Assembly (NCBI GenBank): GCA_031459385.1
Contig: JAVKIP010000012.1
Span: 1 to 64,000 of the forward strand
DNA from: Candidatus Fervidifonticultor secundus
Lineage (GTDB): Bacteria > Sysuimicrobiota > Sysuimicrobiia > Sysuimicrobiales > Humicultoraceae
DNA length: 64,000 nucleotides
Direction: 5' to 3'
Shown here: one piece after another, positions 12,501 to 18,500 of the stretch
Layout of the letters: the number at the start of each line of letters is the position of its first letter
Position numbering within the stretch: the stretch's first letter is position 1
Program-made: the position numbers

Positions 12501-15500
12501 GGCGATCAGGCGCCGCAGGCGCGCGGCGACCTCCTCGTAGACCTTGGTGCGGCGCACCGGCTCGAGGGCCTCGTGCAGGCGTCGGGCAGTGGATTGTTGA
12601 GTCATCCGCTCAGGAAAGGTCCAGTGGTCCAACGTCTACCCACGCAGGTATCGTCTGCCAGGGCGCGGGGGTTGTCAAGAGGGGGGTCGCCGGAGTTGTC
12701 AAGAAGCCGGCGAGTCCCCCGACGGCCGCACGGGAACCGGGCCAACGGCGTCGGGCGCGCCGGTGCCGCCGCAGCTTCCGACGGTCGCGGGGGCGCGCCG
12801 GATGCGGTATGATGGGCGATGTGACGATGGGCGAGATGCCCTGCCACCGGCTGCGCCGCATGGGAACTCCGCTGCGCGCCCTCGGGCACCGCTGGTCTGG
12901 CGTGGCGGCGCTGGCCGCGCTGTGCCTAAGCCTCGCCCTGCCGGCACCTGGCGCGCCGGCGCTGTTGCGTCCTGCCCTGCCCACCTGCGCCGGGTTGCAG
13001 ACGACGCCCCCGCAGGCCGAGGGGCCGTACTACCGACCCAACTCGCCCGAGCGGTCGTCGCTTCTGGAACCCGGGATGCCGGGCGTGCGGCTGACGCTTG
13101 CGGGCTACGTGCTGGTCCGCCCGTGCCGGCCCGTGGCGCGCGCGTGGCTCGATTTCTGGCAGGCCGACGACCGCGGCCAGTACGACCTGGCCGGCTACCG
13201 ACTGCGGGGCCACACGTACACCGACGCCGCAGGCGTCTACGTTCTGGAGACGATCCTCCCCGGTGTCTATCCTGGCCGGACGCGCCACGTCCACGTGAAG
13301 GTGCGCGCGCCGGGCGGCCCGACGCTGACGACGCAGCTCTACTTCCCCGGCGAGGCCGGGAACCAGACCGACCGCATCTTCCATCCGGCGCTGCTCGTGG
13401 CGCTGCAGGATGCGCCTGCGGGCAGGGTGGGGATCTTCCACTTCCTGCTGGAGGGGCCGTGATGCCCGCGCGGTGGGCCGCGATTGCGGCGGCCGGGGTG
13501 CTGATCGCGGCGGCGCCGTGGGCAGGGGCGCGATCCGTCTCCGCCGGCGCCGCGTCCGCCCCCGGCGGAGGGCAGCGGTTCGTCATCGTCCCCGGCGAGT
13601 CAAAGGTGCTCTACCGCGTCGGCGAGGTGTTCCTCAACCAAAACAACCGCTTCAACGTCGCCGAGGGCGTGACCACGGCGGTGCGCGGCGAGATCGTCAT
13701 CGACCGCGCTGTGCCCCGCAACAGCCGCGTCGGGCCCATCACCGTGGACATCAGCCAGTTTCGGTCCGACTCGGCGCGGCGCGACAACGCCATCCGCGAG
13801 CGGTGGCTGGAGTCGGCCCGCTTCCCCCTGGCCACCTTCACGCCGACGGTGACCGAGGGGCTGCCGGCGACCTACGCCGACGGCCAGGAGCTGCGGCTGG
13901 CGATCACCGGCGACCTCAAGATCCGCGAGACCACCCGTCGGGTCACGTTCGACACGGTCCTGAAGCTGGAGGGCACCACGCTCGTGGGCCTGGCCACGGC
14001 GCAGATCCGCATGACCGACTTCGGGTTCGACCCGCCGGCGATCTTCGGCATCCTGCGGGCCGAGAACGACGTGCGGCTCGAGTTCCACATCGTGGCACGA
14101 GCGGCTCAGTAGCGGCGCGCGACCAGCAGCGGCACGATCTCCACGCCACGCAGCCTGCCCAGCGCGCCGCCCGCCGCGTCGCGCTCGGTAAACCGGCCCG
14201 CGCCGTCGCCGGTCACCGCTGCGCCGGCCAGCAGCAGCGGCACGGGGTCGGCCGCGTGTCCCCGCAGCGCGCAGGGGGTGGCATGGTCGGCCGTCACCGC
14301 CACGAGCGTCGCGGCCAGGTCCAGCCCTGCCAGGAGCGTGCCGAAGAAGTGGGCGTCGATCTCCTCGATGACGCGCCGCTTGCCCTCGGCATCGCCGTCA
14401 TGGCCGGGCTCGTCGGGGCCCTTCAGGTGCAGGTAGAGCCCGTCGTGGGCCGGCAGCACCTCCAGGGCGCGGGCTGCCCAGGCGCGGTACACCTCGGCGC
14501 GGGGCGCGCCGGCCCGATGCGGGACCTCCACGACGCTCATACCCAAGGAGCGGGCGATGCCGCGCTCCACGGGCATCTCGACGAAGCAGCCCCAGCGCAG
14601 GCCGAACCGCTCCTCCATCGACGGCACGCGCGGGAGATGATCGCCGCCGTCGCGCAGCAGGATCAGGTTGGCCGGCAGCTTGCCCTCGGCGCGCCGCCGT
14701 GCATTCACCGGATGGGCGTCGAGGAGGGCGCGGCTCTTCTCGGTGAACTCGTTGACCAGCGCCGCAGCCGCGCGCGCCTCCGCGGTGTCCTCCAGCGCCG
14801 TGCAGGGCACCACTTCTTCCGTGAACGCGTTGAGCGCGACGCCGAGCCCGCCCACCCGCGCGTAGGCGGGATCGGTGTTGGAGACCTGCGCGCTGAGCCG
14901 GCCCGCCTGCGGGTAGAACACGACGGCGCAGCGGTAGCCGATGGAGGCGGCGACGACCACGCGGGCCGGCGCCGCCTCCAGGCGGACCTGCGCCGTCACG
15001 CTCTCGGCCAGCGCGCGGGCTTCCTCTGCGGTCAGGGTGCGGCCCACGCGCCGGTCGACGATGCGGCGTCCCTCGCCGCCGGTGGCGAAGTTCCCGCGTA
15101 GCGCCAGGTCGCCGTCGTGGAATGGCAGGCCCACGCCCAGGGCCTCCAGCGGCCCGCGGCCGGTGTGATAGCGCATGGGATCGTACCCGAGGATCGCGGT
15201 GACGGCGACGTCGGACTCGGGCGCGATACCCTCGCCCACGGTCGTGACGAGCCCCTGCTGCCCCACGGCCGCCAGCCGGTCCAGGTGGGGGGTCGCCGCG
15301 GCCTCGAGCGGCGTCCGGCCGCCCAGCGCGGGGGTGGGCCGGTCGCCCAGGCCGTCGAGCACCACGTAGAGGATCTTCGCGGGACTCACCGGTCGTCGAG
15401 CGCCGCGAGCGCCGCCACCAGATCATCGCTCAGGGTGCCCACATAGACCTCGGAAGCCGGGCCGGTCATGCGGATGCTCCAGTCCTCGGCCACGTGAATC

Positions 15501-18500
15501 CGCAGCTCACCGCCCGGCATGCCGACGGTCACGTCCCGGTCCGCGACCCCCGCGCGCACTGCGGCCGCGGCCACCGCCGAGGCGCTGCTGCCCGAGGCCA
15601 TGGTCTCTCCGGCTCCGCGCTCCCAGATACGGATCTCGATCCGGTCGCGGGCGATGACCTGCGCGAACTGCACGTTGGTCCGGTTGGGGAAGAGCGGGTG
15701 GGTTTCCAGCAGCGGCCCGAGCTGGCGCACCGTGACCCGGCGCAGGTCCGGCACGAACACCACGCAGTGGGGGTTGCCTACCGAGACGCCGGTGAACGCC
15801 AGGCGCTGGTCACCGGCCTCGATCGGCTCGTCCACCACTTCGCGGCGTGGGCCGGCCACAGGGATCGCATCGCTCCAGAACGTGGCGCGGCCGATGTCCA
15901 CCGTCATGCCCTCCACGCGCCCGCCGCGCAGGTGCAGCGCCACGGCGGCCACCCCGCCCGGCGTGTCGATGGTGAACCGCTCGCGGCGAGTATACCCGTG
16001 GTCGTAGAGGAACTTGGCGAAGATCCGCAGCCCGTTGCCGCTCTTCTCGGCCTCGCTGCCGTCGGGGTTGTAGATGCGCAGGCCGAAGTCGCCGCCGCGC
16101 GCAGGCGCCACCGCCAGGATGCCGTCGGACCCGACGCCCAGGTGCCGGTCGCATACGCGCCGGATGACCGCCGGCGTCAGCCGGAAGGTGAGCGCGGCCG
16201 GGTCCAGCACGAGGTAGTCGTTGCCCAGCGCGTGTGACTTCACGATCCAGTTGCGTCCTGCGGGCGGCATCGACGGCGCGCTCCTCCGGTGCTTCCGCCT
16301 GCGGGCGGTCCCCGTACGGGGGTTCGCTCAGGCGATGCGCGCGCCCTCCGCCGGCCGGCCCGCGCGCCGCAGAGCCGAGGCGATCACCCGCTCCACCAGC
16401 CGCGGGAACTCGATGCCAGCGGCGCGGGCCGCCTTGGGCAGCAGGCTCTCTCTGGTCAGGCCGGGAATGGTGTTGACCTCCAGCACGACCACGTCGGCCT
16501 CGCGCACGAAGAGATCGACCCGACCGAAGTCGGCGCAGCCCAGGGCCCGGTAGGCCTTGAGCGCGGCAGCCTGCGCGCGCCATACCGCCGCCGGCGGCAG
16601 GCGCGCGGGGCAGATCTCCTCGGCGGCGCCCGGCGTGTACTTGGCCTCGTAGTCGAAGAACTCGCGCGCGGGCACGATCTCCACCAGCGGCAGGGCCACC
16701 GGCCCACCGACGTCCGGGTCGTCCAGGATGCCGCAGGTCGCCTCGACGCCCGTCAGGTACTCTTCCACCAGCACTAGGTTGTCCAGGGCGAAAGCCGCGT
16801 CCAGCGCCCGCGGCAGCTCCGCCGGCGTGCGCACGATGGCGACGCCGATGCTGCTGCCCTGGGCGTTGGGCTTGACGACGCAGGGGAAGCCCAGCGCCTG
16901 CTCGATCTCGCGGAGGAGCAGGCCCTCGCGCAGCGATGCCGCGTCGCGCTCCACCGCCAGCGACGCCGGCACCGGCACGCCGTGGAACGCCATCAGGTGC
17001 CGCGCGCGCCGCTTGTCCATGGCCAGCGCGCTGGCGAGCACGCCCGAGCCGGTGTAGGGGATGCCCGCGAACTCCAGCAGCCCCTGGATCGTGCCATCTT
17101 CGCCGTAGGGCCCGTGGAGGGCGACGAACGCCACATCCAGCCCCTCGGGCGGCATCCAGGAGCCGGCGCGCGGGATCTCCGCGGGCACGGCCTCGTACCG
17201 GGTCCGGTCCAGTGCCTCGAGCACGCAGGCTCCCGTGCGCAGCGAGACCTCCCGCTCGGGCGAGCGCCCGCCCATCAACACCCCAACCCGCAGCCGGCTC
17301 ATGCCGTGGCCCTCCTCCTGGTGGCCCCGCGCGCGTGCCGGGCGCGCCAGGCCGCGATGCGCTCCTGCAGCAACACCGCCGCGCCGTCGCTCAGCACGCT
17401 GGCGAAGGGCACGGCGCGGACGCCGGCCGGCACCGCGTCGCGGATCCTGGCCAGCACCCGCGGCGCGGCCAGCACCACGTCAGCCTCCGCCAGCACAACG
17501 GCCAGTCCCGCCGGGTCCTCCAGGGTGGCCGTCCGCAGCCGCGGCGGCTGCAGGCCCACGGCCGCCAGCGAGCGCGCCTTGCTGCGCACGCCCTCGGCAG
17601 TGGCGCACACCAGGGCGATGCGGCTGCGGCGGGGCAGGCGGGCGATCTCCTCCAGCGCCCGGAAGTCGGGCCAAGCCATCAGGCCGATGACCTCCAGGCC
17701 GGCGCACCGCTGGCGCACCTCTTCGACGTGGAAGAACGTGGTGGCGAGTAGGTCAACCTCCGCGAGCCGGGCCGGGAGGTCGGCCAGCAGGATCGGCACC
17801 ACCGGCACGTCGGCAGCCCGGCGTACGAGCCGGCCGAAGTAGGCCAGGTCCACCGGATTACACTCGACGAATCCCAGGCGCGGCCGGGCGCGCGTGGGGC
17901 GCCGCCGCGGACGGGCCCGCATGGCCAGCATGGCCTGCAGGTCGGCCAGCTCCACGCCGCCGGCGGCGGCGGTGGCCAGCAGGCGGTCGATCTGCGCGGC
18001 CAGCGCCCGGGCCGCGTGCGCGGGCGGCGGCGTCCAGACCACGACGGTGCCCCGGCCGGGTCGCGCGTCCACCACGCCCTCGGCCTCGAGCTCGGCGTAG
18101 GCCCGGGCCACGGTGTTGCGGTTGATGCGCAAAAACCCCGCCAGGGTGCGGACCGGGGGCAGACGCTGGCCGGCCGGGAGCAGGCCGGCCAGGATCTGGT
18201 GGCGGATCTGGGCCTTCAGCTGATCGGGCAGCGAGGCGGCGGCGCGGCGGTCGAGGGAGAGGCGCATGAAATTGTCCTAAGACAACTGGGACAAGTATCG
18301 CACCGCGCCCCCGCCGCGTCAATGCCGGGCGGCCTACGGCCGCCGGCCGCACCCGGGCGCGCCAGCACCGCCGCCCCTCAGGCCGTGACCTCCGCGAGCC
18401 CGTCCTGGAGGACCACCTTGCCCGAGGGGTTGAGGGCGTCGAAGGCGTAGACGTCGCGGGCGCCGTGGCGCGAGGCAGCCCACAGGCGCACGGTGACTTG

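What a model noticed while it worked through the whole genome (the two positions that open the first line are those of the whole stretch)
15386..17302. No glutamate racemase in the phylum; the only DapF is the Ser/Ser type and sits beside ddl; this genus also lacks alanin [...]
Despite a full mur pathway, MurI is not found in any Sysuimicrobiota genome searched, and this genus also lacks Alr. The single diaminopimelate epimerase has both catalytic Cys replaced by Ser and is clustered with D-Ala-D-Ala ligase. It and a Cys/Cys RacX-like racemase in the ileS-lspA operon (C57:37966-38724) are the candidate D-amino-acid sources.
Evidence so far: TIGR00067 is found in 0 of 51 genomes, against 9 of 14 controls. 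Alr is absent from G000, G002 and the near-closed G001 but present in 24 of 33 family members. DapF is single copy in 31 of 31 genomes. The first motif is KSGNG in 30 of 30 loci, the second is ASG[ST]S in the 28 where it was read, and ddl is adjacent in 29 of 30. The racemase lies next to ileS in 47 of 93 genomes. Both Aminotran_4 genes are annotated as BCATs.
(Added by a program. Inside this text positions count along the whole contig: contig position 1 is position 1 of the stretch shown here. "Call 12" and the like, gene names such as g00115 and contig names such as C1 are that model's own, and its searches are not shown. The text may have been shortened before it was handed on; [...] marks where a part breaks off. 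The agent that wrote the report below was given it as the finding of a first reader that could run no searches.)

Follow-up and report, generated by a model that had tools for sequence, protein, structure and literature searches.

The report
Cell-wall pathway missing its D-glutamate source
This bacterial phylum keeps a complete cell-wall pathway but lacks every known dedicated way to make the wall's D-glutamate; the serine-type enzyme flagged here is most likely an ordinary diaminopimelate epimerase, while the enzyme that attaches glutamate is strongly reshaped and is the new lead.

Summary
Observation confirmed and widened to 94 genomes. DapF has Ser at both catalytic sites (86 of 86 read) and lies at or near ddl in 82 of 84 informative loci. 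MurI passes its cut-off in 1 of 94 (a likely contaminant), MurL in 0, Dat-like genes in 3. alr is cleanly deleted from its slot in all three genomes of this genus.

Ser/Ser DapF is a published class (Lamer 2025; the scan also met it on other DNA). Here it keeps every DAP-binding residue and is the only epimerase between DapL and LysA/MurE, so it is the housekeeping DAP epimerase. The RacX-like gene is aspartate/cysteate-racemase-like and missing from its slot in 18 genomes, so it is not the general source.

New: the sole MurD belongs to a remodelled subfamily (MurD*). Elsewhere MurD* goes either with MurI (7 of 9 genomes) or with a LysW-carrier module (0 of 21 with MurI; noted earlier by this scan). 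Sysuimicrobiota have neither. The D-Glu gap is real. A side activity of a housekeeping enzyme is most likely; a MurD*-centred route is the bolder rival. Nothing is assayed.

The parts
15386..16270 (-). dapF, Ser/Ser diaminopimelate epimerase (294 aa); Ser77 and Ser226 at the catalytic positions; DAP-binding N17, N68, N166, N199, E217, R218 kept
   Evidence: TIGR00652 243 bits, cut-off 115; alignment to 9mro and E. coli DapF; tally of 88 loci
16040..16042 (-). codon AGC, Ser77 (first catalytic position, motif EAEKSGNG)
   Evidence: sequence, alignment
15593..15595 (-). codon TCG, Ser226 (second catalytic position, motif TMASGSS)
   Evidence: sequence, alignment
16328..17302 (-). ddl, D-Ala-D-Ala ligase (324 aa), scoring as the ordinary type, not a Van-type ligase
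   Evidence: PRK01372 344 bits (cut-off 243), TIGR01205 304 (cut-off 246); all Van models listed are under cut-off
17299..18267 (-). GntR-family regulator heading the run, overlapping the ddl start by 4 bp
   Evidence: PF00392; seen within the fetched stretch in part of the 88 loci
14106..15389 (-). apgM, cofactor-independent phosphoglycerate mutase, overlapping the dapF stop by 4 bp
   Evidence: TIGR00306 403 bits, cut-off 320; downstream of dapF in most loci
18294..18322 (-). sigma-70-like promoter match just upstream of gntR (consensus match only)
   Evidence: 1 found, 0.1 expected in shuffles
52224..53405 (-). methionine gamma-lyase/MetC-family PLP enzyme; minor candidate for a racemase side activity
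   Evidence: best TIGR01328 439 bits, under cut-off; NF041088 bifunctional Ala/Glu racemase 304 vs 629; family found in 4 of 5 near-complete genomes

Best explanation
The window's genes make two of the stem-peptide building blocks. DapF-SS turns the LL-DAP made by DapL into meso-DAP for MurE and LysA, with a Ser/Ser two-base site (class published; role here inferred from pathway logic and an intact pocket). Ddl makes D-Ala-D-Ala. The stem is most likely L-Ala, D-Glu (amidated by MurT-GatD in G000), meso-DAP, D-Ala-D-Ala (inferred). Position 2 is filled by the phylum's only MurD, a remodelled MurD*, which most likely still takes D-Glu, because its nearest outside relatives with the same acceptor-loop signature sit with MurI. 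With no dedicated racemase, the small supply of free D-Glu (and of D-Ala where alr is lost) most likely comes from the side activity of a conserved housekeeping enzyme. DapF-SS is the leading single candidate (about 0.25-0.3), as in Chlamydia; PLP enzymes (GlyA, the two BCATs, threonine aldolase, MetC family) together are about as likely. Shown: gene content, losses, residues. Inferred: every activity.
For: dapB and lysA are over cut-off, a DapL-like gene scores 557-575 bits (cut-off 593) and ddh is under cut-off in 5 of 5 genomes tested. MurE has the DNPR motif in 35 of 35 loci read (link of DNPR to meso-DAP recalled). The residues that PMC12039745 names as DAP contacts in Anabaena DapF (N13, N66, N164, N197, E215, R216) map to N17, N68, N166, N199, E217, R218 and are kept in every Sysuimicrobiota locus where read. 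Ser/Ser DapF is reported active (PMC13728532 citing Lamer 2025). MurD* keeps the catalytic K115, E157, H183, K198, R302, D317 and the acceptor T321, S415, D417, R425 wherever read in 60 distinct sequences and folds like MurD. Type-A MurD* outside the phylum: MurI over cut-off in 7 of 9 genomes, next to murD* in 4. MurT and GatD homologues in G000 (both under their cut-offs). alr is gone from its slot in at least four separate lineages: this genus, G013, G093 (59-aa remnant) and G005. In G005 a Dat-like gene stands in the slot, and G013 also has one; Dat-like genes occur in only 3 of 94. That fits a standing background source of a free D-amino acid. Precedents: Chlamydia DapF makes D-Glu (PMC5885031); MetC and GlyA make D-Ala (PMC5814848).
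Against: No activity was measured. The Chlamydia enzyme has a remodelled pocket, whereas this one is unchanged, and NF038284 scores 75 vs 350. Ser/Ser DapF is reported in Anabaena as a DAP epimerase and earlier scan notes place it in several other phyla (unchecked), so it does not single out MurI-less lineages. MurD* differs from E. coli MurD at all five positions that PMC8788868 ties to Glu stereochemistry, which a plain D-Glu ligase need not do. The ddl beside dapF differs in type between families (31-77% identity), so the linkage says 'stem-peptide operon', not 'shared substrate'. G005 is 88% and G093 89% complete, so alr could lie elsewhere in them. The MetC family was not found in G082, 99% complete.
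Confidence: 0.5

Rival explanations
1. MurD*-centred route: MurD* adds L-Glu (like MurD2), or either isomer, and the inversion happens on the nucleotide-peptide, by MurD* itself, by DapF-SS or by an unrecognised gene. No free D-Glu is needed.
For: All five stereo-relevant positions are changed: D182 is H in 58 of 60, K319 L in 60 of 60, the K348 column is variable (R 24, P 24, K 6) with a new Arg one place upstream (59 of 60), A414 is E and L416 F in 57 of 57 read. PMC8788868 reports E/R/P/F at 182/348/414/416 in MurD2 and that K319T lets E. coli MurD take L-Glu. The P-loop Ser is F/Y only in this phylum. The N-terminal domain carries an insertion with invariant His, Arg and Trp. MurD* goes without MurI in 93 of 94 genomes here and in 23 of 30 outside genomes tested.
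Against: MurL is over cut-off in 0 of 94. The key MurD2 residue E182 is not present. K319 is I, F or Y in 56 of 83 ordinary-looking MurD representatives, so it is not diagnostic. A414E, L416F and the upstream Arg are shared with type-A relatives that carry MurI. A Dat-like gene in the alr slot of G005 would need a free D-amino donor.
Confidence: 0.25
2. Salvage: the cells take D-Glu, D-Ala or D-Glu-containing peptides from the wall debris of other bacteria, and MurD* is adapted to scavenged substrate.
For: Outside the phylum MurD* travels with NlpC/P60 peptidases (fused in 5 representatives) and N-acyl-D-amino-acid deacylases (8 of 32 loci). Repeated alr loss. Members express peptide and amino-acid assimilation genes (PMC11604079, passage).
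Against: No such gene lies beside murD* here. The deacylase was found in 2 of 5 near-complete genomes. G000 has no L-Ala-D/L-Glu epimerase among its three enolase-family genes (two of them scanned). Members were enriched in a mineral medium, though in a mixed culture.
Confidence: 0.1
3. The ileS-linked RacX-like racemase is the D-Glu and D-Ala source.
For: It is a Cys/Cys Asp/Glu-racemase-fold enzyme at the tail of the extended dcw region in 62 of 94 genomes, kept in Alr-less G000, G001 and G013. With Dat in G013 it could feed D-Ala and D-Glu through D-Asp (inference).
Against: Absent from its slot in 18 of 20 loci fetched, 12 from genomes at least 91% complete, which keep MurD* and lack MurI. 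G093 lacks it and has only an alr remnant. Closest solved relative is Pyrococcus aspartate racemase (E 5e-56); best family is CuyB, and a CuyA-like lyase gene is conserved in the alr region (370 bits, under its cut-off of 450). MurI model 36 vs 147 bits.
Confidence: 0.08
4. The gap is an artefact: a divergent MurI, MurL or Dat was missed by the models or lost in assembly.
For: All genomes are MAGs. The searches score only first-look candidates. Most genomes hold PF01177 members of the hydantoin-racemase type, which were not inspected one by one.
Against: 54 of 94 genomes are at least 90% complete and none of them but G056 has MurI; G001 is in 4 contigs. The same models ring in controls (MurI over cut-off in 8 of 14). 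Several f5 genomes have a single PF01177 match, the ileS-linked one, so no second fold member is universal.
Confidence: 0.07

Closest known systems
DapF-SS, Ser/Ser diaminopimelate epimerases (Lamer et al. 2025, J Mol Biol 437:169375; seen only through passages of PMC13728532)
   Same: Ser at both catalytic positions, DapF fold, full set of DAP contacts.
   Different: In Anabaena sp. YBS01 it sits beside a Cys/Cys copy; here it is the only DapF of a whole phylum and is linked to ddl. Whether the published enzymes were tested on Glu or Ala I could not see.
Chlamydia trachomatis bifunctional DapF (PMC5885031; NF038284)
   Same: Sole DapF in a genome with mur genes but no MurI; the logic of the moonlighting idea.
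   Different: Chlamydia's enzyme has catalytic Cys, a remodelled pocket and needs PLP for Glu; this one has Ser, an intact DAP pocket and scores 75 vs 350.
MurD2/MurL pathway of Xanthomonas (PMC8788868)
   Same: No MurI or Dat; a MurD changed at positions 182, 348, 414, 416.
   Different: No MurL; residues are H, variable, E, F instead of E, R, P, F; many further changes in domains 1 and 2.
MurD* with a Lys-ended LysW-like carrier, ThrC-like PLP enzyme, ATP-grasp ligase and NlpC/P60 (earlier scan finding e1-5097259; not found in print by my searches)
   Same: Same MurD subfamily (xQxW, GN[DE]R, E[IV]SNR motifs), sole MurD, no MurI.
   Different: That branch has lost the S415-D417-R425 loop and has the module; Sysuimicrobiota keep the loop and have no carrier, PLP partner or ligase.
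Pyrococcus horikoshii aspartate racemase (PDB 1jfl) and cysteate racemase CuyB (PMC11193023; NF052483)
   Same: The ileS-linked protein aligns over its whole length, with both catalytic Cys.
   Different: Substrate untested; it lies in the ileS-traR-lspA run, far from the CuyA-like gene.

Membership tests
DapF (TIGR00652) | Score over the curated cut-off | tested here: met
   243 vs 115 bits
DapF (TIGR00652) | Distal DAP contacts N66, N164, N197, E215, R216 (Anabaena numbers) | tested here: met
   kept in all Sysuimicrobiota loci where read, 86-87 of 88
Canonical DapF (Cys/Cys) | Two catalytic cysteines | tested here: not met
   Ser77 and Ser226
DapF-SS | Paired serines at the catalytic positions | tested here: met
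   86 of 86 read at each site
DapF-SS | DAP epimerase activity | not testable with these tools
   inferred from dapB, DapL-like, lysA, no ddh in 5 of 5
DapF-SS | Sequence clustering with the assayed enzymes of Lamer 2025 | not tested
   paper and its sequences not available; the 120 nearest homologues listed are all 66-100% identical
Bifunctional DapF/glutamate racemase (NF038284) | Score over cut-off; remodelled pocket | tested here: not met
   75 vs 350 bits; pocket intact
MurD (TIGR01087) | Score over cut-off, MurD fold, place in dcw cluster | tested here: met
   297 vs 212 bits, match starting at model position 76; Foldseek top hits all MurD; mraY-murD-ftsW order
MurD (TIGR01087) | D-Glu site D182, K348, A414, L416 | tested here: not met
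   H, variable, E, F in 60 distinct sequences
MurD2/MurL pathway | murL gene present | tested here: not met
   NF041275 over cut-off in 0 of 94; one 108-bit partial on a 2.4-kb contig without murD (unpublished G024). No control genome carries MurL, so the search had no positive control.
MurD2/MurL pathway | E182 plus R348 in the ligase | tested here: not met
   H or N at 182; R at 348 in 24 of 60
MurD2/MurL pathway | L-Glu preference of the ligase | not testable with these tools
   needs an assay
MurD*-LysW-carrier module | Carrier ending in Lys, ThrC-like PLP enzyme, ATP-grasp ligase | tested here: not met
   carrier and PLP orthologue not found in G000; ligase model gives only partial matches of 70 and 42 bits in 1 of 94
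Glutamate racemase MurI (for C57:37966-38724) | TIGR00067 over cut-off | tested here: not met
   36 vs 147 bits
Aspartate/cysteate racemase (TIGR00035, NF052483) | Scores over cut-off, two catalytic Cys | tested here: met
   197 vs 93 and 270 vs 190 bits; alignment to 1jfl
D-amino-acid transaminase (for the two Aminotran_4 genes of G000) | Dat model over cut-off and better than BCAT | tested here: not met
   BCAT models 435 and 418 bits over cut-off; Dat models at most 228, under cut-off

The most novel reading that the evidence does not exclude
Sysuimicrobiota build peptidoglycan by an undescribed route to D-Glu that needs no MurI, Dat, MurL or carrier module: the remodelled MurD* takes L-Glu and the inversion is done on the nucleotide-peptide by MurD* itself or by the Ser/Ser DapF, or DapF-SS is a three-way enzyme for DAP, Glu and Ala, which would also explain why alr is lost again and again.
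Probability: 0.35. Interest if true: 0.85.

Novelty: new variant of a known kind. Interest (0 to 1): 0.62.

Why it matters
D-Glu at position 2 is described as invariant in peptidoglycan (PMC5885031), and each earlier case of a missing MurI led to new enzymology: MurD2/MurL in Xanthomonas, bifunctional DapF in Chlamydia. Here a whole free-living phylum lacks all of these, and the candidates are few, soluble and testable in standard E. coli auxotrophs. The MurD* subfamily links this gap to a second, carrier-based solution in other uncultured phyla, so one set of assays would address both. The Ser/Ser DapF alone would be of low interest, as it is in print.

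Tried and rejected
MurL route: 0 of 94 over cut-off. Dat behind the BCAT labels: not supported in G000; true Dat-like genes in 3 of 94. L-Ala-D/L-Glu epimerase with a dipeptide-ligating MurD*: no such epimerase among the three enolase-family genes of G000, MurC is present and looks intact, and the model's best structural matches are MurD, not MurC or Mpl. GNAT + N-acylamino-acid racemase + D-aminoacylase run backwards: the racemase-like gene is in 5 of 5 genomes but scores as MenC, and menB/menD-like motifs are present in G000; the deacylase is in 2 of 5. 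MetC-family bifunctional racemase: 304 vs 629 bits, family in 4 of 5. LysW-carrier module: not in G000, its ligase not in the phylum. D-cysteate or D-Asp at position 2: MurD* is unchanged in genomes that lost the racemase, and a sulfonate could not take the MurE link (reasoning). Reading K319L and D182H as proof of L-Glu use: dropped. My first count of the K348 column was one place off and was corrected. The first-motif pattern was faulty for the 120 homologues, so only the second motif (120 of 120 ASG[ST]S) is used. The first ileS test used the wrong frame and was redone. No complex prediction and no read mapping were run, as neither would decide substrate. The tree is the quick search; the careful one did not finish. 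Lamer 2025 could not be read, so what it says about other substrates stays open.

Full report
**What is in the window.** Four genes run on the minus strand: a GntR regulator (17299-18267), ddl (16328-17302), dapF (15386-16270) and apgM (14106-15389), with 4-bp overlaps at two joints and one promoter-like match upstream. DapF scores 243 bits on TIGR00652. Its two catalytic positions are Ser77 and Ser226 where Anabaena and E. coli DapF have Cys. Ddl scores as an ordinary D-Ala-D-Ala ligase.

**The observation across the phylum.** All searches covered 94 genomes, 54 of them at least 90% complete; tallies include the unpublished G016 and G024. DapF matched in 88 and is single copy except in G020, whose second copy is Cys/Cys on a short, foreign-looking contig. 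I read all 88 loci: Ser77 in 86 of 86 read, Ser226 in 86 of 86 read; ddl within 900 bp upstream in 78, 1.0-1.9 kb away in 4, not seen in 2, cut off in 4. MurI passes its cut-off in 1 of 94, on a 2-kb contig of G056 whose only organism-named relative is from Chloroflexota, so it is probably a bin contaminant. MurL passes in 0 of 94 (no control genome carries it). Alr passes in 76 of 94. Its usual place is nnr-alr-pheA. In G000, G001, G002 and G013 nnr runs straight into pheA; G093 has a 59-aa remnant; G005 has a Dat-like gene in the slot. The loss is therefore real and repeated.

**DapF-SS is a known class with a full-time job.** PMC13728532 (passages) reports that Lamer et al. 2025 found active DapF enzymes with two catalytic serines; that paper itself is not held. 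Earlier notes of this scan met the same variant on other DNA. Here dapB and lysA pass their cut-offs, a DapL-like gene scores 557-575 against 593 and ddh fails in 5 of 5 genomes tested, and MurE has DNPR in 35 of 35 loci read (meaning of the motif recalled). LL-DAP must be epimerised and this is the only candidate. The DAP contacts named for Anabaena DapF in PMC12039745 (passages) are all kept. The bifunctional Chlamydia enzyme has a remodelled pocket (PMC5885031, abstract and passages), and its model scores 75 against 350 here. The link to ddl fits a precursor operon: the ddl beside dapF is of different types in different families.

**The RacX-like gene is not the general answer.** It is closest to Pyrococcus aspartate racemase and passes the CuyB cysteate-racemase model (PMC11193023, passages). 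It lies in the ileS-traR slot in 62 of 94 genomes. I fetched that slot from 20 genomes without a matching hit: 18 lack the gene there, 2 were uninformative. Twelve of the 18 are at least 91% complete. Their other PF01177 matches are mostly shorter, weaker hits of the kind that are hydantoin-racemase-like in G000; I did not inspect each, nor a 164-bit paralogue in G026. Both Aminotran_4 genes of G000 are BCATs by score and motif. Dat-like genes occur in 3 of 94, two of them in genomes without Alr.

**The new lead: MurD is remodelled.** G000 has one MurD, in the dcw cluster (C57:9982-11457). It scores 297 bits, but only from model position 76, as do nearly all full-length matches in the phylum. 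The AlphaFold model is confident (pLDDT 92.6) and its best matches are MurD. In 60 distinct sequences the catalytic residues are invariant, yet S116 is F/Y, G140 R, S160 N, F161 R, D182 H (58), K319 L, A414 E and L416 F; the K348 column varies and a new Arg stands one place before it (E. coli numbers and from my alignment, other roles recalled; domain 1 aligns poorly). PMC8788868 (parts 1 and 2 of 3 read) ties D182, K348, A414, L416 and K319 to Glu stereochemistry, so all five are changed. But K319 is I, F or Y in 56 of 83 ordinary-looking MurD representatives and D182 is N in 40, while A414E is in none, so the pattern does not prove L-Glu use.

**MurD* outside the phylum.** A profile search and a genome scan found the subfamily in Patescibacteria, Chloroflexota, Planctomycetota and others. 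Of 80 loci, 49 belong with Sysuimicrobiota and 31 do not; 30 of the 31 were tested for MurI (L244 was not; L255 and L272, also sent, fall inside the Sysuimicrobiota branch). In a quick tree, all MurD* separate from 15 ordinary MurDs (support 99), and the outside ones split in two. Type A (9 small genomes) shares the ESF..DYR.R loop with Sysuimicrobiota; 7 of 9 have MurI, 4 next to murD*. Type B (21 tested) has lost that loop; 0 of 21 have MurI; 20 carry a LysW-like protein ending in Lys, 18 a ThrC-like PLP gene (one cut off), 13 an ATP-grasp ligase, and many an NlpC/P60 peptidase. Kin are not independent, so the Fisher value overstates this. The carrier reading came from earlier finding e1-5097259; I had found the other partners before it and then checked the carrier. 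MurD* is the only MurD in 10 of 10 outside genomes tested. Sysuimicrobiota have neither partner set: no carrier or PLP orthologue in G000, and only weak partial matches to the ligase in 1 of 94.

**Most likely working.** Stem peptide L-Ala, D-Glu, meso-DAP, D-Ala-D-Ala, with MurT-GatD homologues in G000 for amidation (both under cut-off). DapF-SS makes meso-DAP (about 0.85). MurD* probably adds D-Glu, as its type-A relatives imply. Free D-Glu, and D-Ala in the alr-less lineages, probably come from a side activity: DapF-SS is the only racemase-fold gene I found in nearly every genome, and PLP enzymes have precedent (PMC5814848, passages). The rival is that MurD* takes L-Glu and inversion follows on the nucleotide-peptide. 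All activities are inferred.

**Novelty.** Ser/Ser DapF: in print. Phylum-wide absence of MurI, MurL and nearly all Dat together with a remodelled MurD: not seen in the listings; the main text of PMC11604079 has no hit for 'racemase' or 'cell wall'; PMC11962464 mentions peptidoglycan twice and was seen only as a listing. Subscription papers and supplements were not covered. PMC13759103 and PMC11602996 (passages) did not bear on the question. I rate it a new variant of a known kind of problem, interest 0.62, with a 0.35 chance of a new route to D-Glu.

Noticed in passing
L245, L261, L288, L290, L294, L296, L303 and other type-B loci: murD* with a Lys-ended LysW-like carrier, ThrC-like PLP enzyme, ATP-grasp ligase and NlpC/P60; in 5 loci also a D-glutamate-cyclase-like domain (PF14336), four times fused to NlpC/P60. 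None of 21 genomes has MurI, including seven of 3.3-5.5 Mb with the PLP gene.
   Followed up: partly
P0157; P0132, P0135, P0155, P0156, P0186: MurD* fused to the PLP enzyme (one protein) or to NlpC/P60 (five proteins).
   Followed up: no
L227, L229, L232, L235, L239, L274, L303, L305: An N-acyl-D-amino-acid deacylase gene lies just upstream of murD* in 8 small-genome dcw clusters, in 4 of them together with murI.
   Followed up: no
L383:5486-6157 (G005); L312:2689-3540 (G013): Dat-like transaminases, 63% identical, in two genomes without Alr; in G005 it sits in the alr slot after nnr.
   Followed up: partly
L311:2445-2621 (G093): A 59-aa alr-like remnant between nnr and the next gene, apparently an internal deletion.
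   Followed up: partly
G000 C57:13777-15180 and the Sysuimicrobiota-type murC loci: MurC has HNPxK where the small-genome MurCs in the same call have HHPxE; MurE has EVASH or EVTSH where the solved MurEs shown have Ser at the third place. Possible co-change with MurD*; background frequency not checked.
   Followed up: no
G000 C17:21702-22691 and C1:343141-344193: D-cysteine desulfhydrase/CuyA-like PLP enzymes: one conserved downstream of the alr slot after an oxoprolinase-like gene, one next to a D-glutamate-cyclase-like gene (C1:342063-343112).
   Followed up: no
G000 C13:48878-51075: murT-gatD pair, suggesting amidated D-Glu in lipid II.
   Followed up: partly
G000 C23:112378-114322: GNAT plus OSBS/N-acylamino-acid racemase pair; the racemase-like gene is 64-74% identical in 5 of 5 genomes tested, with the GNAT upstream in 4 of 5.
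   Followed up: partly
L101, L117, L122 (genus g16); L095-L111 (family f5): The ddl beside dapF has been replaced by other ddl types (31% and about 39% identity); in g16 it follows a second Mur-ligase gene, and in f5 a HAD hydrolase lies between dapF and apgM.
   Followed up: no
L032:520-1986 (G024, unpublished); L034 (G056); L313 (G020): A MurL-like gene, a MurI and a Cys/Cys DapF, each on a short contig that looks foreign to the bin.
   Followed up: partly
window 8313-11848: Three genes of a 2-oxoacid:ferredoxin oxidoreductase-like complex (label from sequence appearance, not scanned) downstream of a GntR gene.
   Followed up: no
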